64,000 nucleotides of DNA, from the IMG/VR virus record IMGVR_UViG_3300036985_002287, positions 30,613-94,612 of that record. One strand, written 5' to 3'. Below, one piece after another: positions 1,854 to 13,366 of this stretch (position 1 is the stretch's first letter; each line of letters begins with the position of its first letter). The translations under genes were made by a program, and so were the position numbers. The notes beneath the pieces are model-generated. The model was not told the DNA's origin. It did not search any database and saw nothing but the letters and a program-made list of their open reading frames with translations. This DNA is from a virus. Its lineage: Duplodnaviria; Heunggongvirae; Uroviricota; Caudoviricetes.

Positions 1854-2024
1854 TTATTTTACTATTTCGATTTGGATACACCGTGAACGGGCACCGCTAT
1901 CTTTAGCCATTTCCTGCATACGTTGGCAACTAGCTAGGTCAGCCACAGGCGGGGAATAACTGAGCTGATTACCATTGTGTCCACCCGAAGTGATGAGCAC
2001 CCAGACTAAGAAGATCGATTTCAT
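1854..2024 (-). CDS. small secreted protein (signal-peptide-like N-terminus)
   Basis: Track ORF 1854-2147 trimmed to internal MKSIFLVWVLITSGG... because promoter 2050-2077 and terminator 2092-2120 lie inside the longer version. Confidence 0.45.
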   Translation of the reverse strand: MKSIFLVWVLITSGGHNGNQLSYSPPVADLASCQRMQEMAKDSGARSRCIQIEIVK

Positions 2025-2049: not shown

Positions 2050-2077
2050 ATTATAGCATAACGCAGCATAAGGTCAA
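2050..2077 (-). promoter_or_regulatory. sigma70-type promoter TTGACC-N16-TATAAT
   Basis: rev-comp of ggtcaa (2072-2077) and attata (2050-2055). Confidence 0.6.
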
Positions 2078-2091
2078 TAGGATATGTACTC

Positions 2092-2120
2092 AAAAGAAAA
2101 GCCCGGGCGATAGGCCCAGG
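2092..2120 (-). terminator. intrinsic terminator of the ncRNA unit
   Basis: minus strand CCTGGGC-CTATC-GCCCGGG (7 bp incl. one G-U) followed by CTTTTCTTTT. Confidence 0.7.
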
Positions 2121-2451
2121 CTTCAATGTCTTTATCACTGACGGCACCAGGAACCCCTAGAACCGCTCTTCGTCACCACCCTCTACGGCGCTGTGTGACT
2201 ACCTATTTTCTAACTTCTCTTTATATTATTGACATTATTATCTCTCCAATGAGCTGATAATAAGCGGCCGGGGTTCTACCCCATCTATATTAGTTTTATC
2301 ATTTTAGTTCTTTGGATATATCTCCTCTGCGAGTGGATAATCGCTCAGTTACCTTTAGCCCTTATTTCATATATCATCTCGACAATTCCTACCACTGGTT
2401 AATAGGCTGTGGAGAGAGGATTTGTGTAGCGTACCGGTGCCATTGCTTCTA

Positions 2452-2577
2452 ACACAATACCATAAAACGAGAAGTCCTTTCTTAGTCTCAGCTACTCCAT
2501 AAATTTAAGCGAGTTAAAAAGTTCCCAACGCTTCTACAAGTCTTACAGTTTCGTCCTTCCGGACTCATCAGTTGTGT
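2452..2577 (-). ncRNA. hammerhead self-cleaving ribozyme (type I topology, long stem III insertion)
   Basis: CUGAUGA-GUCC-GGAA-GGAC-GAAA at 2571-2549; stem III ACUGUAAGAC/GUUUUAUGGU; GUA cleavage triplet (cut 2458|2457); stem I ACACAA/UUGUGU. Confidence 0.75.
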
Positions 2578-3103
2578 AATACTATTTATATCAACTACCC
2601 TTGCTCCGGTCTTGAACCGGACACCGAATGGTCACTAAGGCATGCTTGCAGGACCCGATGACAAAACTCATTCAATGCATCCCCATTTCAAGAGTGTATC
2701 AAAAATTCCTAAGGGGACTCGAAACCCCAAACTGATATATTAAAAGAATACCAGCGCGGCCGTTTAAGACGTAGGATGCAGGCCCACTGTCTCATACAGG
2801 AACTTATAGAAACAAGCTAAAAGGTGAAATAACACTACGGTGCCCTAAGTCAGCGAACCAACATTAGAACCAAACCGGGCCAGGGGACACCTCTCTAGCT
2901 GCAACAAGACTTGACAGAATCCACTTGCAGGTGGTAATCTTTCTCGTCAGCTTGCTTCTATAAATTCCCTACAATAACTAAAGTGAAACACATTATGACC
3001 GGGCTGTTATACTCTCTACTAATACCACCAGGGTATTCGGGTCGTTAGTCCGACTTAGTTACCTATCAACTAATGTATCTCACTTTAGCTATCGTATGTG
3101 TTT

Positions 3104-3132
3104 ATTATAATGCCGTTTACTTACACTGTCAA
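3104..3132 (-). promoter_or_regulatory. perfect consensus promoter TTGACA-N17-TATAAT
   Basis: tgtcaa 3127-3132 and attata 3104-3109 on plus strand; overlaps stop of HD gene; drives the ORF-free unit. Confidence 0.75.
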
Positions 3133-3723
3133 CGGTTGTTCCTTACAATACCGTTCTATGTTTGCCCTTGCCTGTTGCTCCCACCTTTCCCGAGCAAAGT
3201 CGGTATGGTAGATGAATTCACGACAGGTTAGAAACTGCTTTAGGAAGGTAGCACTTTTCGATTGATCTGCTGGATAAGAACCGCCATTCTCTTCAATAAT
3301 GTTTATTTGGTTCTGGATAAAGTCTTCATATGGAAGACAGAGTGAAAAGAGATCAGCATCGAGCAAGGTTCCCAGATCACCTCCTAGATCATCTACCATT
3401 CGCTTATTACTTAGATGAATTTCTATACAAGTATATAGAATCAGTTGTGCAGCCTTATCCACCGCTACCATATTATCGGGCGTCATATCACGCCCTGTCA
3501 GTAGAAGTGCAGCAGCAGAGCATCGTTCGTTAGCATCGGATCCAGCACCCGGAATATAGATAGCATCGTGCCAGTATGCTGCCAGTATCAGTTCAGGTGA
3601 TGCTTTCTCATCGATGATCTGAACACCTTTTACAACATTGAGAGCGTGGCCCCAATTATGATAATGACGACTCTTCCAATTGATATCATACCAATACTGT
3701 GCAGAAGTAGCAATGTCTTTCAT
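3121..3723 (-). CDS. HD-superfamily metal-dependent phosphohydrolase
   Basis: RHYHNWGHALNV...AAYWHDAIY (H..HD pattern); start moved to MKDIATS (ATGA overlap with upstream stop). Confidence 0.65.
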   Translation of the reverse strand: MKDIATSAQYWYDINWKSRHYHNWGHALNVVKGVQIIDEKASPELILAAYWHDAIYIPGAGSDANERCSAAALLLTGRDMTPDNMVAVDKAAQLILYTCIEIHLSNKRMVDDLGGDLGTLLDADLFSLCLPYEDFIQNQINIIEENGGSYPADQSKSATFLKQFLTCREFIYHTDFARERWEQQARANIERYCKEQPLTV

Positions 3724-3938
3724 TTTATTTTCCTTGCTGCCTGTGTTTTCCATCCCTCCAACCAGGCACACCATCTTGCTTGAGTCATTACATCTACAAA
3801 ATTTCTCAACAACTTCGGACCACCGTCTGGGCGTGGATCAACTATTAGTCTATCAGGAAACATAGAGCAATACTCGTTAAATGCCTTGCGGCATACCCTG
3901 AGTTCCTTTAATGATAAATCTGGAACATCTTCTTTCAT
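3720..3938 (-). CDS. hypothetical protein
   Basis: 72 aa ORF; ATGA-type overlaps on both sides. Confidence 0.5.
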   Translation of the reverse strand: MKEDVPDLSLKELRVCRKAFNEYCSMFPDRLIVDPRPDGGPKLLRNFVDVMTQARWCAWLEGWKTQAARKIK

Positions 3939-5332
3939 TCTTCAATCTCCACTTTTTCCGGCTTGATAGCAGCAGCGAACTGAGCTTCAACTTCTGCGAA
4001 ACTATCGGCAACCGTTTTGTCATCGCGGACCTCAATCAATCGTGGTAGGAACAGCGAGTGCTTCTTACCGGCCTTAGTGGAATACATAATACCATTAGAA
4101 CGAATGACAGCAATCTTGTTCATGTATTCGGCGCGGTTGTTATGTATTTCGTTCCGCAAATCATCTGGAATACCCGAAGCATTGACCAAAAGCAGGCCGC
4201 AGCTACTCTCACAGATAAGCGAACCAAATAAGTGAGCAAACTTATTTTTACCTGGTGTAAATCCTTTAATTTCAAGGTCGACGTCAACAACTTCCTTCTG
4301 CTTAACTTGATCTTTGCTTGTACCATCCTTCCAGATTGCGTGACGACTCTTACATACTGTGCCTTCCAACTTACGCCGACGAGCATCACGATAATGTGCA
4401 AGTGCTTCATCGGGAGAATAAACAATCTTTGTTTCAATCAGCTGGATCTGAATAACATCTGTACCTTGTAAGACAGGCTTCATTACCTGTTTTTCAAGCG
4501 AAATAAACCGTTCATGATAAGGAATATTATATTTGCCCTTAGAAACAAATTCTTCTAGCGGAATCTGATCCCAACAATCAAAAACGACCACCTCACCTTC
4601 GCCGAGCGACCCACCTTTGGAAACAGAATTCAAAATCCCATTTCCAATTTGGCGTTCCAACATCACACCGTTACGATACACAGTAAGTTCGCCATGTGTG
4701 CTCGTTCCGTGTGTAAATGTTTTCGCAGCATAATCTTCAATGCCGAGCGCATCCTGAGGCATTACTGTACCACCACGTGAGGTGATTTGAACAAATCCAT
4801 CCTTGCCGACATTCACATAAGCAAACATTCCGTCTGCTTTGATTTGTGAATACACACCTTCGGAATAGTCCCACTCTTCCATATTAGAAGATTCGGGCAA
4901 AGAGCAGCGCATATAAGGAGTGACAGGAATTTCGTAATCCTTGTTTACACCTTTGACAGCTTTGTTTACTGTGGATTCACTAAATCCAGAACCCAAGTCT
5001 TTGATAAGAATCTTGCGATACCAACCATTCCATTGATCATTAGTTGATCGCAGCATGGACATATTGATCGCATCCAGCGCCGCGTGACCTGTTAATACCC
5101 GTTTAGTCAAGCCAACAGCCAGCAGCTTAAACATGTCGAATGGCAATCCTGCTCCATCTGCACCGCTGCGGATAGGAACCTTCTTCACACCAAATGTATC
5201 GATGTTATCCAGCGCATAGCGCAAGCCGGCAAAGAATTCGGTATTGCCTGCCTTAGCTTCACGAGCAATAACACCCTGTTTGAAGAGTTTGCCATTGTCG
5301 GATGCGATTTCTGTAAGTAGTTGGTGTGTCAT
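3935..5332 (-). CDS. ATP-dependent DNA ligase
   Basis: Adenylation motif I KADG (SQIKADGMFAY), EGTVCK (motif IV-like), later K-rich motif; 465 aa. Confidence 0.8.
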   Translation of the reverse strand: MTHQLLTEIASDNGKLFKQGVIAREAKAGNTEFFAGLRYALDNIDTFGVKKVPIRSGADGAGLPFDMFKLLAVGLTKRVLTGHAALDAINMSMLRSTNDQWNGWYRKILIKDLGSGFSESTVNKAVKGVNKDYEIPVTPYMRCSLPESSNMEEWDYSEGVYSQIKADGMFAYVNVGKDGFVQITSRGGTVMPQDALGIEDYAAKTFTHGTSTHGELTVYRNGVMLERQIGNGILNSVSKGGSLGEGEVVVFDCWDQIPLEEFVSKGKYNIPYHERFISLEKQVMKPVLQGTDVIQIQLIETKIVYSPDEALAHYRDARRRKLEGTVCKSRHAIWKDGTSKDQVKQKEVVDVDLEIKGFTPGKNKFAHLFGSLICESSCGLLLVNASGIPDDLRNEIHNNRAEYMNKIAVIRSNGIMYSTKAGKKHSLFLPRLIEVRDDKTVADSFAEVEAQFAAAIKPEKVEIEE

Positions 5333-6809: not shown

Positions 6810-7697
6810 TTAAATTATATTCTTTGCAACAGAGTCCACGATTACTTTCATATGCTTCGGACCTATATCTACACTCTCCGAAAAATCAATTACGAAGTCT
6901 TTTCTTGTTAGTGGATCTTCGAGATATTCTTTAACTAATTTGTTCCAAAATACTAAATTTTCTTGTCGAGCATCTTTAGGAAGCACAATACAATACCCAT
7001 CTGCATCTTGCCATAGTGGATAAACTTTATTTAGAATAGGAACGAATTCCGAATCGTGTAAAGGTTTTCTATTGCTCAAAGCAAGTAATCGTAACTTTCC
7101 TGCATCTATCATCGGCTTTGCAAGTATCAACGGAAGTATAGCAACGTCGACATGACCACCCATTACATCTGTCATTAACGGTGCACCACCTTTATATGCG
7201 ACCAATGTGGGTGGCCGCCTTCCATTTTTAAGATCTGTAAACTTGAATAGTTCTTCCATTAGAATCTTTTGTGCTGGTGCTCCATAGCCAAATGATTTTT
7301 TGGTGTCTACTTTGCTCAACTCGTTTTGAACTTCTGACAACGATTGTAGGCTATTAGCAGACCCAGTTACAAGTGCAAAGATCGACGTTCTTATCATAGA
7401 TACATATTCAAATTGATAATTAGGGTTCTTATTTTGATAGACTGCTACAGTAGCCACAGTACCAAAACCGATTGTGCTGTCGTCGGCAGAAGCAACTTCT
7501 CCCATCCCTATTAAGCCGTCTGCACCACTTTTATAATTTGCAATAATATTGATTCCTCGTGAATCGGCATATTTTTGAAAATGTCGAAAGGCAATATCGG
7601 CGCCGCCGCCTGGCGGAAATGGTATAATGGCTTTATATGGGTCGGCGTGAGCAATGGCGCATATTAAAATTAACGCTGCGATTATAATTTTTCTCAT
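6810..7697 (-). CDS. TctC/Bug-family periplasmic solute-binding protein (tripartite tricarboxylate transporter receptor)
   Basis: Signal peptide MRKIIIAALILICAIAHA; PFPPGGGADI..., YKGGAPLMTDVMGGHVDV, AGKLRLLAL family signatures. Confidence 0.8.
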   Translation of the reverse strand: MRKIIIAALILICAIAHADPYKAIIPFPPGGGADIAFRHFQKYADSRGINIIANYKSGADGLIGMGEVASADDSTIGFGTVATVAVYQNKNPNYQFEYVSMIRTSIFALVTGSANSLQSLSEVQNELSKVDTKKSFGYGAPAQKILMEELFKFTDLKNGRRPPTLVAYKGGAPLMTDVMGGHVDVAILPLILAKPMIDAGKLRLLALSNRKPLHDSEFVPILNKVYPLWQDADGYCIVLPKDARQENLVFWNKLVKEYLEDPLTRKDFVIDFSESVDIGPKHMKVIVDSVAKNII

Positions 7698-11053: not shown

Positions 11054-11138
11054 TGGTGCGGCTGGCCGGACTCGAACCGGCACACCTTTCGGCGAGAGAT
11101 TTTAAGTCTCTTGTGTCTACCAATTTCACCACAGCCGC
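11054..11138 (-). tRNA. tRNA-Leu (anticodon TAA), CCA encoded
   Basis: GCGGCTGTGGTGAAATTGGTAGACACAAGAGACTTAAAATCTCT-long variable arm-GCCGGTTCGAGTCCGGCCAGCCGCACCA; class II cloverleaf. Confidence 0.9.
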
Positions 11139-11168
11139 AGTATTCACTAATAAGTATTTATTATATAC

Positions 11169-11501
11169 TTATTCATAGTATATGTCAATATAGGCCAAGG
11201 CATCCATTTCTTCTTGCAGTGCAGTGGCAACGGATTCCTTCACACGCAGCGGATCATTAATCACAACTTCGCGAACCTTATTTGCGATCGAGTCGCGACC
11301 ATTTAGGTACGCAATTAGTCGACCGGATGCAATCGCTCGGCCAACCTTCTTATTGAATACATCAGTTGTATTACACCGAGCAATGGAAACAAGAACCTTA
11401 TTGTTATCGGCTGGCAGAATTGCAATTGTGGCGCCACCACGCGAACTCATTTCCATGTCCATGTTGAAGTACCGATAATGCATAAATTCTAGCTTATTCA
11501 T
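11169..11501 (-). CDS. hypothetical protein
   Basis: 110 aa ORF; AAGGAA SD. Confidence 0.55.
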   Translation of the reverse strand: MNKLEFMHYRYFNMDMEMSSRGGATIAILPADNNKVLVSIARCNTTDVFNKKVGRAIASGRLIAYLNGRDSIANKVREVVINDPLRVKESVATALQEEMDALAYIDIYYE

Positions 11502-11538
11502 TGTGTTCCTTTGTGTGTTAAAGCGTTTATAAGTTTAT

Positions 11539-11567
11539 ATTTTACAGTAAGGCAAGCTGCCTGTCAA
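11539..11567 (-). promoter_or_regulatory. promoter TTGACA-N17-TAAAAT
   Basis: tgtcaa 11562-11567; atttta 11539-11544. Confidence 0.55.
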
Positions 11568-11574
11568 CTATCTT

Positions 11575-12102
11575 TTACTTTGGCCTGTAAAATTTGTGAT
11601 TGTCGATTATTGCCATCACCTCAAATTGTTTTGACCAGATAGGATATTTGTAACCTTTAGCTTTCATCACTTTGTCAGCAAGGTAAAATGTTGCGCCACC
11701 GGTCGGATCGGGTACTGTTCGGTGTGCCACTTTATGTGCTACCTGCATGGCCATTTGCCAACTTTGCTTGTCGATTTCGTTCTTTTGATTCGGTATTTTG
11801 TTTGGGCTAACTGCTATATTTCTAAGTGTAGCGTTATTATTAAATACGCTATACTGCTTAGGCTGTAATACGACCTGGCATAACGTCTTTTTAACCGCCC
11901 TATTTAATGCTGTGTATGCCACAGCTACCTGACCACGCTCCGGCTCGCTACGAGCTTCGCCGTATATAGCAGTAGCCAAACACTTGATCTGCTTCATATC
12001 AACCTTAACTACTTTCGGAGTATGATGCGGTTTAAAACACATTGTCGGCTGACCCAGACCTAATGTGGTAGGCACTAATGCTAGTAAGAGTAATTGCTTC
12101 AT
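11575..12102 (-). CDS. SleB-like cell-wall hydrolase, secreted
   Basis: Signal peptide; AIYGEARSEP...VAYTALNR...PKQYSVFN signature of SleB/Hydrolase_2 family. Confidence 0.7.
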   Translation of the reverse strand: MKQLLLLALVPTTLGLGQPTMCFKPHHTPKVVKVDMKQIKCLATAIYGEARSEPERGQVAVAYTALNRAVKKTLCQVVLQPKQYSVFNNNATLRNIAVSPNKIPNQKNEIDKQSWQMAMQVAHKVAHRTVPDPTGGATFYLADKVMKAKGYKYPIWSKQFEVMAIIDNHKFYRPK

Positions 12103-12109
12103 ACTTCCT

Positions 12110-12138
12110 ATTATATCTTAAATAGGAGTATGAGTCAA
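12110..12138 (-). promoter_or_regulatory. promoter TTGACT-N17-TATAAT, 7 nt from ATG
   Basis: agtcaa 12133-12138; attata 12110-12115; ATG 12102. Confidence 0.65.
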
Positions 12139-12155
12139 TAGGAATTAGAATAAGC

Positions 12156-12177
12156 GGCAGTCACGAAAAGTAGTGCC
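12156..12177. repeat. GGCAGT...hairpin element, short copy
   Basis: ggcagtcacgaaaagtagtgcc; shares TTCGYGACTGCC half with the other copies. Confidence 0.3.
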
Positions 12178-12313
12178 GAACCAGAACCCAATCCGGTCGA
12201 GATGCTTTTCTACTGTCTGTTCCGACATGTATTAGGAACCTTTATAAGAAGTTTACAGCCCTTTCGGGATTGGCTCCACTTATGCCGTGGTGAGCATTCT
12301 TATATTAAAAATT

Positions 12314-12362
12314 GGCAGTCGCGAAAGTAACGATCTTTAACTATCTTGATACTACCACTGCC
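12314..12362. repeat. GGCAGTGG...TTCGCGACTGCC hairpin element, copy 2
   Basis: ggcagtcgcgaaag...ccactgcc, immediately downstream (minus sense) of tRNA 12401-12477. Confidence 0.45.
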
Positions 12363-12400
12363 GGTAATGTTTCTTGACTATCCACATCACCTTTTAAAAA

Positions 12401-12477
12401 TGGTAGGCCGGGTGGGAGTCTAACCCACGATCAACGGTTTATGAGACCGCTGCTTTAGGACACTAAGCTACCAGCCT
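12401..12477 (-). tRNA. tRNA with CAT anticodon (Met or lysidine-dependent Ile2), CCA encoded
   Basis: AGGCTGGTAGCTTAGT...GCGGTCTCATAAACCGT...GTGGGTTAGACTCCCACCCGGCCTACCA; A1-U72 and acceptor resemble E. coli ileX as I recall it. Confidence 0.85.
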
Positions 12478-12482
12478 AAATT

Positions 12483-12674
12483 TTATTTCTTGGTTTTTCT
12501 TGGGTCATCATCCATTAACCCTTGCGCCAATAAGGCATCGCATACACCATTCATGATGATCCACAATTTCCAGTCGGTAGCGCCGCCTTGCTTAACCATT
12601 TCTCTCAATTGTGTATTTGTTTCCTGCAATTCTTGCAGAATTGCATCTAATACTTCTTCTTTACTCTTAGCCAT
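12483..12674 (-). CDS. hypothetical protein
   Basis: 63 aa ORF. Confidence 0.5.
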   Translation of the reverse strand: MAKSKEEVLDAILQELQETNTQLREMVKQGGATDWKLWIIMNGVCDALLAQGLMDDDPRKTKK

Positions 12675-12698
12675 TATATCGCCTTTGTTTGTTATTTA

Positions 12699-12971
12699 CT
12701 ATTTCTTAAACCAAATCTTTGCAATCGCGGTAGCAACTATTAGTGATAAATGGTTGCTACAGAGAACATTTTCGCGTCGTGCAATCTTCGAAACTTCGTG
12801 GCTAAGATAATACCTAACCCAGCTCAACAGACCTTTCGCCTTAGCAAAACTGTCGTGTACATCTTTTCTGCTGTTAAATTCCGCATCACATATTTCGAAT
12901 AATGTATCAACTGCCCCTATCTCAGAGTTCATACAATGATACAATTCGATATGATTTCTTGGAGACAGCAT
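12699..12971 (-). CDS. hypothetical protein
   Basis: 90 aa ORF; 1-nt overlap upstream. Confidence 0.5.
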   Translation of the reverse strand: MLSPRNHIELYHCMNSEIGAVDTLFEICDAEFNSRKDVHDSFAKAKGLLSWVRYYLSHEVSKIARRENVLCSNHLSLIVATAIAKIWFKK

Positions 12972-13273
12972 TATTTGGCCAAACTAATGAAATGTCGTGG
13001 TGTTTTGAACTCTGCATCACCTTTTGCTCGCCATTGCGCCGGTGTCTGAGCTACCTTGGCAATCTTTGCGGCTGGCTTAACCATTTCGCGATTGATATAC
13101 CATGTAAGCATTTTGGCCTTAACTTGGTCTGCTACACTGCCATATTCGGGATCGTGGCTAAATCTAATCGGCGAATCCGCCCATGCATTGCGCGTCATGA
13201 AGGATGCCACTGCCTTCCTGTGCAATTTATTATTCGCATCAAATGCAACTGTGTTCATTTTATGAAGAATCAT
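12971..13273 (-). CDS. hypothetical protein
   Basis: 100 aa ORF; AAGGAAAC SD. Confidence 0.55.
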   Translation of the reverse strand: MILHKMNTVAFDANNKLHRKAVASFMTRNAWADSPIRFSHDPEYGSVADQVKAKMLTWYINREMVKPAAKIAKVAQTPAQWRAKGDAEFKTPRHFISLAK

Positions 13274-13291
13274 TTTGTTTCCTTAGTGTGT

Positions 13292-13366
13292 TGGTCCGGC
13301 GTACAGGAATCGAACCTGTATTAATAGCTTAGAAGGCTACTGTTCTTTCCATTGAACTAACGCCAG
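13292..13366 (-). tRNA. tRNA-Arg (anticodon TCT), CCA encoded
   Basis: CTGGCGTTAGTTCAATGGAAAGAACAGTAGCCTTCTAAGCTATTAATACAGGTTCGATTCCTGTACGCCGGACCA folds as cloverleaf. Confidence 0.9.

What the first reader, a model, noticed from the sequence alone, without database searches (positions are those of the whole stretch)
2452..2577. Complete hammerhead ribozyme core with all three helices inside the ORF-free unit
Minus strand 2571-2549 reads CUGAUGA-GUCC-GGAA-GGAC-GAAA. That covers every invariant hammerhead nucleotide: C3 U4 G5 A6 N7 G8 A9, the G10.1:C11.1 pair, G12 A13 A14 and A15.1. Stem II is 4 bp capped by a GNRA tetraloop. A matching substrate strand lies about 80 nt downstream: GUUUUAUGG-UA|UUGUGU (2468-2452). 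It forms a 10-bp stem III (ACUGUAAGAC 2549-2540 with GUUUUAUGGU 2468-2459, including three G-U pairs and the A15.1:U16.1 pair). The cleavage triplet is a legal GUA, with the cut predicted between 2458 and 2457. Stem I is 6 bp (ACACAA 2577-2572 with UUGUGU 2457-2452). The topology is type I with a 71-nt insertion (2539-2469) in the stem III loop. Cleavage would split the approximately 1 kb transcript into 5' and 3' parts of roughly 640 and 360 nt. Chance occurrence of the core plus three compatible helices in this much sequence seems very unlikely. That is my rough judgement, not a computed value.
Basis: seen in the sequence. Interest (0 to 1): 0.9.

Follow-up and report, generated by a model that had tools for sequence, protein, structure and literature searches.

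The report
Hammerhead ribozyme inside phage noncoding RNA
The flagged motif is a genuine, evolutionarily conserved type I hammerhead self-cleaving ribozyme, and it sits in the middle of a roughly 1 kb, previously uncatalogued structured noncoding RNA of a T4-like freshwater phage, which it should cut into two pieces.

Summary
The minus strand 2577-2452 carries every invariant hammerhead nucleotide. It has stem II of 4 bp with a GGAA loop, stem III of 10 bp closed by a 71-nt insert, a GUA cleavage triplet (cut between 2458 and 2457) and a 6-bp stem I.

- **Chance:** 300 dinucleotide shuffles of the window gave no complete motif. The core plus stem II alone appeared 0.003 times per window.
- **Conservation:** nine distinct relatives from phage and metagenome contigs keep the core, the cleavage triplet and stem I. 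Stems II and III are rewritten by compensatory changes. 98% of cells are paired, 13 of 24 pairs change on both sides, and 0 of 500 shuffles match this.
- **Context:** the ribozyme lies in a promoter-to-terminator unit (about 3097 to 2092, minus strand) with no ORF. Upstream is a covarying domain with a tRNA-like layout. Downstream is a structured 3' domain of about 365 nt. Rfam 15 matches nothing in the unit except the hammerhead core, and that match is below threshold.
- **Relatives:** the spot beside the ribozyme takes variable inserts, including small ORFs and two unrelated homing endonuclease genes.
- **Likely role (inferred):** co-transcriptional cleavage gives the 3' domain a defined 5'-OH end.

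Hammerheads are already common in phages, so this is a new member of a known kind in an unusual host RNA. Self-cleavage itself is untested.

The parts
3104..3132 (-). Promoter of the noncoding unit: TTGACA, 17-nt spacer, TATAAT (12 of 12 consensus positions). Transcription should start near 3097.
   Evidence: The promoter is conserved in relatives.
2970..3096 (-). 5'-terminal long hairpin of the transcript. It is a variable module: replaced in L002 and absent in L003 and L102.
   Evidence: I1, 26-nt arms, 85% complementary.
2799..2968 (-). Module closed by a 20-bp helix (2968-2949 with 2818-2799). It contains hairpins with CUGCAA and UUGCAG loops.
   Evidence: I2. Compensatory changes between the window and L003/L010: AAGCU/AGCUU becomes CACAC/GUGUG, and CCAC/GUGG becomes CGCC/GGCG.
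2700..2798 (-). Optional sub-block containing the hairpin GGGG-UUUCGAGU-CCCC (2728-2713). It is 93-100% identical in L001, L002, L003 and L010, and absent in L078, L099 and L102.
2597..2695 (-). Conserved domain with a tRNA-like layout. A 7-bp closing stem (2695-2689 with 2603-2597) is followed by AAAUGGGGAU, then a long arm carrying the loop CUGCAAGCAUGCC. A T-arm-like hairpin UCCGG-UUCAAGA-CCGGA (2621-2605) comes last.
   Evidence: RNAalifold on 8 sequences gives 28 pairs, 12 with compensatory changes. ARAGORN and the Rfam tRNA/tmRNA models are negative.
2578..2596 (-). Variable slot between the tRNA-like domain and the ribozyme. It is about 20 nt here. In relatives it is about 100 nt (L003), about 330 nt with a 74-aa ORF (L002), or about 1.08 kb with a 67-aa ORF and a 277-aa homing endonuclease (L010).
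2572..2577 (-). Hammerhead stem I, 5' strand: ACACAA.
2565..2571 (-). Hammerhead core C3 U4 G5 A6 U7 G8 A9 (CUGAUGA). It is invariant in all nine variants.
2553..2564 (-). Stem II (GUCC/GGAC, including G10.1:C11.1) capped by the GNRA loop GGAA.
   Evidence: Three of its 4 pairs change on both sides in relatives.
2549..2552 (-). Core G12 A13 A14 and A15.1 (GAAA). Invariant.
2459..2549 (-). Stem III: ACUGUAAGAC (2549-2540) pairs with GUUUUAUGGU (2468-2459). It is closed by a 71-nt structured extension (2539-2469), which begins with a second covarying helix (AGAAG/CUUCU) after a small internal loop.
   Evidence: helix 3: 8 of 10 pairs change on both sides; helix 4: 2 of 4.
2457..2458 (-). Predicted scissile bond. 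A2458 (H17 of the GUA triplet) would carry the 2',3'-cyclic phosphate and U2457 the 5'-OH.
   Evidence: The position follows from hammerhead numbering. The triplet is invariant in all variants. Cleavage was not tested.
2452..2457 (-). Hammerhead stem I, 3' strand: UUGUGU. This is also the 5' end of the downstream RNA.
2125..2457 (-). 3' domain, a structured RNA that would begin with a 5'-OH. It has conserved blocks (AAGGGCUAAAGGUAACU, GGAGAUAUAUCCAAAG, GGGGUAGAACCCCGGCC) and covarying hairpins.
   Evidence: 93 predicted pairs, 11 with compensatory changes.
2092..2124 (-). Intrinsic terminator: an 11-bp G+C-rich stem followed by a U-tract.
   Evidence: terminator-like matches.

Best explanation
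Positions 2577-2452 (minus strand) encode a functional type I hammerhead ribozyme. It is embedded in a noncoding phage transcript of about 1.0 kb, which runs from the promoter at 3132-3104 to the terminator at 2124-2092.

Proposed sequence of events:
- As the RNA is made, stem I 5' strand, the core, stem II and the long stem III hairpin fold first.
- Once UUGUGU (2457-2452) emerges, stem I closes and the RNA cuts itself between A2458 and U2457.
- The 5' product is about 640 nt. It holds the upstream modules, the tRNA-like domain and the whole ribozyme, and ends in a 2',3'-cyclic phosphate.
- The 3' product is about 366 nt and begins with a 5'-OH. It carries only six ribozyme-derived nucleotides.

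In type I topology the entire catalytic scaffold stays on the upstream fragment. The most economical reading is therefore that the ribozyme makes a precise 5' end for the conserved 3' domain. It would also insulate that domain from whatever lies upstream, which differs widely between relatives.

Shown: the motif, its conservation and covariation, and the transcription-unit signals. Inferred: catalysis, co-transcriptional timing, the end chemistry in vivo, and which fragment benefits.
For: - **Sequence:** it matches every invariant hammerhead position.
- **Uniqueness:** there is one complete motif in 128 kb of sequence (both strands), against 0 in 300 shuffles.
- **Folding:** the minimum-energy fold gives the three-way junction.
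- **Rfam:** the type III model aligns the core and stem II.
- **Relatives by direct counting:** nine distinct relatives from at least ten independent samples keep the core, the GUA triplet and all helices with no mismatches.
- **Stem II variants:** GUCC/GGAC, GUCG/CGAC, GUCG/CGGC, GCCG/CGGC, GACC/GGUC and GAAGC/GCUUC.
- **Stem III variants:** ACUGUAAGAC, ACUUUUGAAAC, ACGUCUGAAGC, AUCGAUAAGU and ACCAUAGGAUC, each with a matching partner strand.
- **Covariance model:** a model built from 4 sequences finds five further variants at 67-122 bits, E-values 1e-25 to 5e-13.
- **Covariation statistics:** on that alignment 98.1% of cells pair and 13 of 24 pairs change on both sides. No shuffle of 500 reaches any measure, and slid controls give at most 5 such pairs and about 42% pairing.
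- **Transcription unit:** the promoter matches 12 of 12 positions and a terminator is present. There is no ORF of 40 aa or more on either strand between 2452 and 3073.
- **Independence from inserts:** the ribozyme is kept whether the upstream slot is empty (window, L001) or holds ORFs (L002, L010), and also in the minimal unit of L102.
Against: - No biochemical or transcript-end evidence was available.
- Rfam gathering scores are not reached: 28 bits against 48.5 for the type III model, and the type I model gave no hit.
- Stem I is short and A/U-rich (4 A:U and 2 C:G pairs) and shows no compensatory change, only one A:U to G:U change. No stem I to loop II tertiary contact could be identified, so fast cleavage at physiological Mg2+ is not assured.
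- The alignment used for one search was fitted to the model structure, which favours pairing.
- In L099 a homing endonuclease gene replaces the first ~120 nt of the 3' domain. The idea that the 3' domain needs this exact 5' end is therefore not universal.
- The refolding hairpin proposed for the new 5' end is weak (-5.9 kcal/mol) and is not recovered in all relatives.
Confidence: 0.8

Rival explanations
1. The hammerhead mainly serves the variable insert next to it. It would form the 3' end of, or stabilise, mRNAs of genes inserted in the upstream slot (small ORFs, homing endonuclease). Alternatively it travels with such mobile genes. The window would then carry an 'empty' copy. This rival is not exclusive with the main explanation.
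For: - L002 has a 74-aa ORF ending 8 nt before stem I.
- L010 has a 67-aa ORF ending in the TGATGA of a remnant half-hammerhead. It also has a 277-aa homing endonuclease (phrog_655, E = 4e-36) whose last 12 codons read through the active core and stem II.
- L099 has an HNH_3 gene inserted 8 nt after the cleavage site.
- Processing of mRNAs and polycistronic transcripts is the role proposed in the literature for bacterial and phage hammerheads (PMC3088659, PMC6765202).
Against: - The ribozyme is equally conserved where the slot is empty (window, L001) and in the minimal unit of L102.
- Among 61 IMG/VR loci encoding relatives of the L010 endonuclease, none has a credible hammerhead beside the gene. 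The two are not a travelling cassette.
- The two endonuclease genes are unrelated, lie on opposite sides and on opposite strands. That looks like independent invasion of a conserved target rather than a shared function.
Confidence: 0.25
2. The sequence folds as a hammerhead-like three-way junction that is kept as architecture of the large RNA, or as a decayed relic, but no longer cleaves.
For: There is no activity data. No stem I to loop II tertiary contact was identified. Stem I is weak. Perreault et al. report hammerhead-like sequences, including phage ones, that were inactive in vitro (PMC3088659).
Against: All 13 core positions, the A15.1:U16.1 pair and the GUA triplet are invariant in nine variants. 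The adjacent helices have diverged by up to about half of their positions over the same set. A purely architectural junction would not need G5, G8, G12 or H17. The geometry is that of active natural hammerheads: 4-bp stem II with a closing loop and 6-bp stem I followed by unpaired flanks.
Confidence: 0.07
3. The motif is a chance match in an A/T-rich intergenic region.
For: None beyond the sub-threshold Rfam score.
Against: No complete motif appeared in 300 shuffles. The motif is conserved with compensatory changes in nine variants.
Confidence: 0.01

Closest known systems
Type I hammerhead ribozymes (Rfam RF00163, clan CL00010), including the many bacterial and phage hammerheads of Perreault et al. 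2011 (PMC3088659)
   Same: It has an identical catalytic core, G10.1:C11.1, A15.1:U16.1 and a GUA cleavage triplet. Three helices surround the core and stem I is open. It lies in a phage intergenic setting. A pattern scan of IMG/VR returned about 25 further phage hammerheads of types I and III, so the class is common in phages.
   Different: Stem III is closed by a conserved, structured extension of 42-71 nt rather than a short loop. This keeps it below Rfam thresholds. It sits inside a dedicated noncoding transcription unit between two structured RNA domains, not between protein genes. No pseudoknot or loop-loop tertiary contact was recognised.
Discontinuous or extended hammerheads, for example those in mammalian CLEC2 3' UTRs
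   Same: Conserved core elements are separated by a long intervening sequence, so standard models miss them.
   Different: In those cases the long insert lies between the enzyme and substrate strands and spans hundreds of nucleotides of a eukaryotic mRNA. Here the insert is a compact, conserved extension of stem III in a phage RNA.
Large structured bacterial and phage noncoding RNAs: GOLLD, ROOL, OLE (PMC12286853, PMC5737381)
   Same: The host unit is long (0.65-2 kb), phage-encoded, modular and rich in covarying helices. It has optional modules, and three tRNA genes lie about 8-10 kb away. It comes from lake-type metagenomes.
   Different: No Rfam model for these families matches, even at E <= 10. 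None of those families is described as carrying an internal self-cleaving ribozyme.
Phage T4 stable RNAs rnaC and rnaD (species 1 and 2) in the tRNA cluster beside the segB homing endonuclease (NC_000866)
   Same: These are stable noncoding RNAs of unknown function in a T4-type phage. They have a tRNA-like T-arm/acceptor end and neighbour a homing endonuclease gene. The window's DNA ligase is of the T4 type.
   Different: No sequence similarity was seen. The T4 RNAs are 119-139 nt, are processed with the tRNAs and have no ribozyme. The resemblance is one of kind only.
Ribozyme 'insulators' and end-makers: engineered hammerhead cassettes, and phage theta/HDV-like ribozymes next to tRNAs (recalled, not re-read)
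   Same: A self-cleaving RNA defines a precise end of a neighbouring functional RNA regardless of flanking sequence.
   Different: Here the arrangement is natural, uses a type I hammerhead, and would define a 5' end (5'-OH) of a ~366-nt RNA rather than a tRNA 3' end.

Membership tests
Hammerhead ribozyme (clan CL00010) | Invariant core nucleotides C3 U4 G5 A6 N7 G8 A9 and G12 A13 A14 | tested here: met
   CUGAUGA is at 2571-2565 and GAA at 2552-2550. Both are invariant in nine variants.
Hammerhead ribozyme (clan CL00010) | A15.1:U16.1 pair, and a cleavage-site nucleotide H17 that is not G, following U16.1 | tested here: met
   A2549 pairs with U2459, and H17 is A2458, giving the triplet GUA. 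The same holds in all variants.
Hammerhead ribozyme (clan CL00010) | Three helices radiating from the core, supported by covariation, with G10.1:C11.1 closing stem II | tested here: met
   Stems I/II/III are 6/4/10 bp. 98.1% of cells are paired and 13 of 24 pairs change on both sides, with 0 of 500 shuffles matching. Stem I itself shows only one one-sided change.
Hammerhead ribozyme (clan CL00010) | Type I topology: stem I open, stems II and III closed | tested here: met
   The order along the strand is stem I 5' strand, core, stem II hairpin, GAAA, stem III hairpin with insert, H17, stem I 3' strand.
Hammerhead ribozyme (clan CL00010) | Score at or above the curated Rfam gathering threshold (an operational criterion, not a biochemical one) | tested here: inconclusive
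   There was no hit at gathering thresholds. RF00008 aligns only the core and stem II at 28 bits against 48.5. The 71-nt stem III insert and the permuted topology explain the shortfall.
Hammerhead ribozyme (clan CL00010) | Tertiary contact between stem I and stem II or loop II that gives fast cleavage at physiological Mg2+ | not tested
   Loop II is a GNRA tetraloop in 7 of 9 variants, and stem I is followed by unpaired flanks. This geometry is compatible with a contact. No covarying or pseudoknot contact was identified.
Hammerhead ribozyme (clan CL00010) | Site-specific self-cleavage giving 2',3'-cyclic phosphate and 5'-OH ends | not testable with these tools
   This needs in vitro transcription or end-specific RNA-seq.
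GOLLD / ROOL / OLE and other catalogued large RNAs; group I and group II introns | Match to the family covariance model | tested here: not met
   No match in the unit even at E <= 10 or in relatives.
tRNA / tmRNA (for the 2695-2597 domain) | Cloverleaf or tRNA-like domain recognised by ARAGORN or the Rfam models | tested here: not met
   ARAGORN finds only the three tRNAs at 11054-13366 and none in the units of relatives. Rfam tRNA and tmRNA models are silent there. Only the layout resembles tRNA: a closing stem plus a 5-bp hairpin with the loop UUCAAGA.

The most novel reading that the evidence does not exclude
The hammerhead may be the built-in maturation step of a previously undescribed family of modular structured RNAs (0.65-2 kb) in T4-like freshwater phages. 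The unit always follows an HD-superfamily phosphohydrolase gene. It consists of optional 5' modules, a covarying domain with a tRNA-like layout, the ribozyme, and a ~360-nt 3' domain that is released with a 5'-OH. The ribozyme region also appears to be a hotspot for homing endonuclease invasion. That could explain the mosaic pattern of near-identical blocks next to 75%-identical blocks between relatives.
Probability: 0.55. Interest if true: 0.65.

Novelty: new member of a known kind. Interest (0 to 1): 0.5.

Why it matters
The biological role of genomically encoded hammerheads in bacteria and phages is still open (PMC6765202). Most known cases lie between protein genes, where any effect is hard to separate from ordinary mRNA turnover.

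Here the ribozyme lies inside a self-contained noncoding unit with a consensus promoter and terminator. It separates two conserved structured RNAs, and natural variants exist with and without inserted genes. That makes a clean test case for whether a hammerhead is used to set a 5' end and insulate a functional RNA.

It also brings to light a sizeable structured phage RNA that Rfam 15 does not contain. In addition, it shows that stem III inserts hide real hammerheads from the standard models.

Tried and rejected
- **Long-range pairing of the two domains.** 2748-2734 could pair with 2322-2308 (I3). I rejected this. The 5' partner is absent in L078, L099 and L102 while the 3' segment stays conserved. 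In L104 the 5' segment covaries as a local hairpin instead. Pairing I8 (2930-2919 with 2338-2327) is also not supported in L002 or L003.
- **Endonuclease-plus-hammerhead as a mobile cassette.** 61 IMG/VR loci with relatives of the L010 endonuclease show no credible hammerhead next to the gene.
- **Refolding hairpin at the new 5' end.** UUGUGUUAG could pair with CUACACAA. It is predicted for the window and L003 only, and weakly. I kept it as a possibility, not a finding.
- **Known RNA families for the unit.** Rfam gave nothing at gathering thresholds or in E-value mode. ARAGORN found no tRNA or tmRNA in the unit.
- **DNA similarity.** There was no match to 50,697 GenBank phage records. A scan of 185,579 species genomes for one exact 20-mer from the conserved block found nothing. 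The host therefore remains unknown. The ligase's best matches are phages of Pseudomonas, Stenotrophomonas, Ralstonia and Variovorax at about 34-42% identity.
- **The upstream 217-aa protein.** Pfam, NCBIfam and PDB sequence searches gave nothing. PHROGs and JGI call it only an HD-superfamily phosphohydrolase. A link to 2',3'-cyclic phosphate chemistry is pure speculation.
- **A wasted scan.** One search used 12 N instead of 10 in the pattern and so found nothing. It was repeated correctly.
- **Single-sequence folding energies.** The z-scores were uninformative.
- **L007.** It shares only the 20-mer and looks unrelated.

Full report
**1. The observation**

The minus strand of the window reads as follows:
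- ACACAA (2577-2572)
- CUGAUGA (2571-2565)
- GUCC GGAA GGAC (2564-2553)
- GAAA (2552-2549), whose last A opens ACUGUAAGAC (2549-2540)
- 71 nt (2539-2469)
- GUUUUAUGGU (2468-2459), then A2458
- UUGUGU (2457-2452)

Every coordinate and pairing in the finding is correct. That includes the three G-U pairs in stem III, the A15.1:U16.1 pair, the GUA triplet and the type I order of elements.

**2. Is it more than chance?**

I wrote a hammerhead descriptor with these requirements:
- the core CUGAUGA;
- a stem II of at least 4 bp closed by G:C, followed by GAAA;
- a stem III of at least 5 bp starting with A:U, with a loop of up to 150 nt;
- an H17 that is not G;
- a stem I of at least 5 bp.

It finds exactly this one site on the two strands of the window. 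In 300 dinucleotide-preserving shuffles it found no complete motif. The core plus stem II alone occurred 0.003 times per window.

The RNAfold minimum-energy structure of 2445-2585(-) is exactly the three-way junction. The total energy is no better than shuffles (z = +0.8), as expected for an A/U-rich sequence with a large loop.

Rfam 15 at gathering thresholds reports only three tRNAs. In E-value mode the type III model RF00008 aligns the core and stem II at 28 bits against a gathering score of 48.5. The type I model gives nothing. This is what one expects when stem III carries a 71-nt insert.

**3. The transcription unit**

The motif lies in a stretch with no ORF of 40 aa or more on either strand between 2452 and 3073. 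The stretch is bounded as follows:
- a perfect sigma-70 promoter, TTGACA-17-TATAAT, at 3132-3104 on the minus strand, immediately after the stop codon of the upstream gene;
- an intrinsic terminator at 2124-2098 followed by a U-tract;
- a second near-consensus promoter (2077-2050) for the downstream small gene.

A transcript from about 3097 to about 2092 is about 1.0 kb.

The upstream genes on the same strand are a T4-type ATP-dependent DNA ligase (3935-5332) and a 217-aa HD-superfamily phosphohydrolase (3121-3774). The ligase's nearest cultured relatives are large phages of Pseudomonas, Stenotrophomonas, Ralstonia and Variovorax at 34-42% identity. There is no nucleotide match to GenBank phages.

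**4. Relatives and covariation**

I recovered relatives in three ways: the neighbouring protein, exact DNA patterns, and contigs encoding homologues of the HD protein. Sources were IMG/VR, JGI metagenomes, ENA and Logan assemblies. In all of them a gene-free unit follows the HD gene and contains a hammerhead.

Nine distinct versions exist:

| Locus | Stem II [loop II] | Stem III |
|---|---|---|
| window, L001 | GUCC[GGAA]GGAC | ACUGUAAGAC / GUUUUAUGGU |
| L002 | same | one G:U becomes G:C |
| L099 | GUCG[GUAA]CGAC | two G:U pairs become Watson-Crick (GUUUUACAGU) |
| L003, L100 | GUCG[GCAA]CGAC | ACUUUUGAAAC / GUUUCAAAGGU |
| L078, L101 | GUCG[GUAA]CGGC | ACGUCUGAAGC / GCUUCGGACGU |
| L102 | GCCG[GUAA]CGGC | ACCAUAGGAUC / GAUCCGUGGU (one bulge) |
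| L104 | GACC[UGAAA]GGUC | AUCGAUAAGU / ACUUAUCGAU |
| L010 | GAAGC[23 nt]GCUUC | as in the window; stem I is GACGCAA |

The core, the GUA triplet and the 3' strand of stem I never change.

A covariance model built from four close sequences detects the five more distant variants at 67-122 bits. On the resulting alignment:
- 98.1% of cells pair.
- 13 of 24 pairs show changes on both sides.
- None of 500 column shuffles reaches any of the five measures.
- Sliding the partners by 1-3 columns drops pairing to about 42% and double changes to 5 or fewer.

The caveat is that this alignment was fitted to the model. However, the helix-by-helix table was derived by direct base counting, without that model-fitted alignment, and shows no mismatch (L102 and L104 were paired by eye).

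**5. What surrounds it**

The unit is modular.

- **tRNA-like domain (2695-2597).** This sits directly upstream of the ribozyme and is present in every relative, including the minimal ~650-nt unit of L102. A 7-bp closing stem covaries: ACUCUUG/CAAGGGU, GCCUUUG/CAAAGGC, CUCCUG/CAGGAG and CUCUCG/CGAGAG. An invariant AAAUGGGGAUGC follows. A long arm carries the loop CUGCAAGCAUGCC. A 5-bp hairpin with the invariant loop UUCAAGA abuts the 3' strand of the closing stem. RNAalifold predicts this independently, with 12 of 28 pairs compensated. The layout recalls a tRNA or a tmRNA tRNA-like domain, but ARAGORN and Rfam do not accept it as one.
- **Optional 5' modules.** Further upstream the window has a terminal hairpin (3096-2970), a 20-bp-closed module (2968-2799), and a ~100-nt block with the hairpin GGGG-UUUCGAGU-CCCC. 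Relatives lack or replace these.
- **3' domain (2457-2125).** It has several conserved blocks and covarying hairpins.
- **Rfam.** No model matches any part of the unit other than the hammerhead core, even at E <= 10.

**6. The variable slot and the endonucleases**

The distance between the tRNA-like domain and stem I varies widely:
- About 20 nt in the window and L001.
- About 100 nt in L003.
- About 330 nt with a 74-aa ORF in L002.
- About 1.08 kb in L010.

In L010 a 67-aa ORF ends in the TGATGA of a remnant half-hammerhead (ACACAACTGATGAG). A 277-aa homing endonuclease follows (phrog_655, E = 4e-36). Its last codons read through the active CUGAUGAG and a remodelled stem II.

In L099 an unrelated HNH_3 gene lies antisense, 8 nt beyond the cleavage site. 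It replaces the first ~120 nt of the 3' domain and is flanked by an ATTGTGTTA repeat. L104 carries a 65-aa ORF elsewhere in the 5' domain.

Relatives of the L010 endonuclease at 61 other phage loci are not next to hammerheads. The association is therefore local. I read it as repeated invasion of a conserved DNA target, not as a ribozyme that belongs to the endonuclease.

The pattern of identity between relatives is strikingly mosaic. One example is 98% identity over 227 nt next to 76% identity, with a flanking protein only 69% identical. That fits either recombination and co-conversion around such sites or very strong constraint. More distant relatives (L099, L102, L104) show compensatory change in the same block, so it is truly structured.

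**7. Mechanism**

The shown facts are the motif, its conservation and the unit's boundaries. The rest of this section is inference.

In type I topology the whole catalytic scaffold is 5' of the scissile bond. The downstream RNA inherits only UUGUGU and a 5'-OH. The upstream RNA keeps the ribozyme and a 2',3'-cyclic phosphate.

The upstream side is the variable side and the downstream domain is the constant one. I therefore think the ribozyme most likely sets the 5' end of the 3' domain and isolates its folding from variable upstream sequence. By established knowledge of bacterial RNA decay, a 5'-OH would also make the RNA a poor substrate for 5'-end-dependent decay.

A supporting role in ending or stabilising slot-encoded mRNAs is possible in relatives. 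It cannot be the reason for conservation in the window. A hairpin that would sequester the new 5' end is only weakly supported. A proposed pairing between the two domains was rejected.

**8. Comparison and novelty**

By its defining sequence and structural features this is a hammerhead. The only criterion not met is an operational Rfam score, and catalysis is untested.

Hammerheads of all three topologies are known to be frequent in bacteria and phages (PMC3088659). A single pattern scan here returned about 25 more in IMG/VR. Their function remains undefined (PMC6765202).

The ribozyme is thus a new member of a known kind, with an unusually long conserved stem III extension. What is less ordinary is its host: a dedicated, modular, structured noncoding RNA that is not in Rfam 15. 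It resembles GOLLD, ROOL or the T4 stable RNAs only in kind.

**9. Verdict**

- Confidence that this is a real, selected hammerhead motif is about 0.95.
- Confidence that it self-cleaves at 2458/2457 and splits the transcript is about 0.8.
- Confidence that its purpose is to define the 5' end of the 3' domain is about 0.5.
- Interest is moderate (0.5). It would be higher if the surrounding RNA proves to be a new functional family.

Noticed in passing
window 2590-2821 (minus); L002, L003, L010: This block of the noncoding unit is 93-98% identical at the DNA level to relatives. The adjacent HD-phosphohydrolase protein in those relatives is only 69-87% identical, and their hammerhead and 3' domain are only 75-78% identical. 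The boundary falls at the variable slot beside the ribozyme. Either recent recombination or co-conversion, or extreme constraint, could explain it.
   Followed up: partly
window 2597-2695 (minus): A conserved, covarying domain with a tRNA-like layout: a 7-bp closing stem, AAAUGGGGAU, a long arm, and a 5-bp hairpin with the invariant loop UUCAAGA abutting the closing stem. No CCA is encoded. ARAGORN and the Rfam tRNA/tmRNA models do not recognise it.
   Followed up: partly
L010 4065-4898 (minus) and 4928-5131 (minus): A 277-aa homing endonuclease gene (phrog_655) is inserted just 5' of the hammerhead. Its last 12 codons run through CUGAUGAG and a remodelled stem II. Upstream, a 67-aa ORF ends in the TGATGA of a remnant half-hammerhead. 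CAACTGATGAG therefore occurs twice, flanking the insertion.
   Followed up: partly
L099 5510-6070 (minus): An unrelated HNH_3 endonuclease gene is inserted antisense, 8 nt after the predicted cleavage site. It replaces about 120 nt of the 3' domain and is flanked by the repeat ATTGTGTTA. This is a second, independent endonuclease invasion next to the ribozyme.
   Followed up: partly
L002 about 7230-7460; L104 4308-4505: Small ORFs (74 aa and 65 aa, no family match for the former) sit inside the otherwise noncoding unit at different positions. The unit tolerates inserted coding sequence.
   Followed up: no
window 2921-2934, 2880-2900 and 2645-2660 (minus): Three hairpin loops carry related motifs with palindromic cores: CUGCAA, UUGCAG and CUGCAAGCAUGCC. 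These could form kissing contacts within or between molecules.
   Followed up: no
window 2308-2325 (minus): GGAGAUAUAUCCAAAG, a Shine-Dalgarno-like block in the 3' domain, is conserved in all relatives. No conserved ORF follows it. Some relatives have a start codon for an 8-10-codon ORF 12 nt downstream; the window does not.
   Followed up: partly
L103 940-3065: In a relative whose HD protein is 62% identical, the same promoter position is followed by at least 2 kb with almost no called genes (a single 46-aa ORF at 949-1089) and no hammerhead. That stretch has many copies of the inverted repeat ATCATTTTAAA / TTTAAAATGAT bracketing ~80-100-nt segments, some with T-arm-like hairpins. ARAGORN and Rfam find nothing there.
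   Followed up: partly
L074-L098 (IMG/VR): The pattern CAACTGATGAG-N10-CGAAAC alone retrieved about 25 other phage contigs. Most have well-formed type I or type III hammerheads unrelated to this unit, and several form recurring sequence groups.
   Followed up: partly
window 2050-2077 (minus) and 1854-2024 (minus): A second near-consensus promoter (TTGACC-16-TATAAT with an extended TG) lies directly after the unit's terminator. It would drive a 56-aa ORF with a hydrophobic N-terminus and no family match.
   Followed up: no
window 11054-13366 (minus): Three phage tRNA genes on the same strand as the unit: Leu-UAA, Met-CAU and Arg-UCU. The Leu and Met genes are also present in relatives.
   Followed up: no
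L099, L100, L101, L102 downstream genes: Relatives encode a ribosomal protein L7/L12-like gene (PF00542) a few genes downstream of the unit. A more distant relative encodes an S21-like gene.
   Followed up: no
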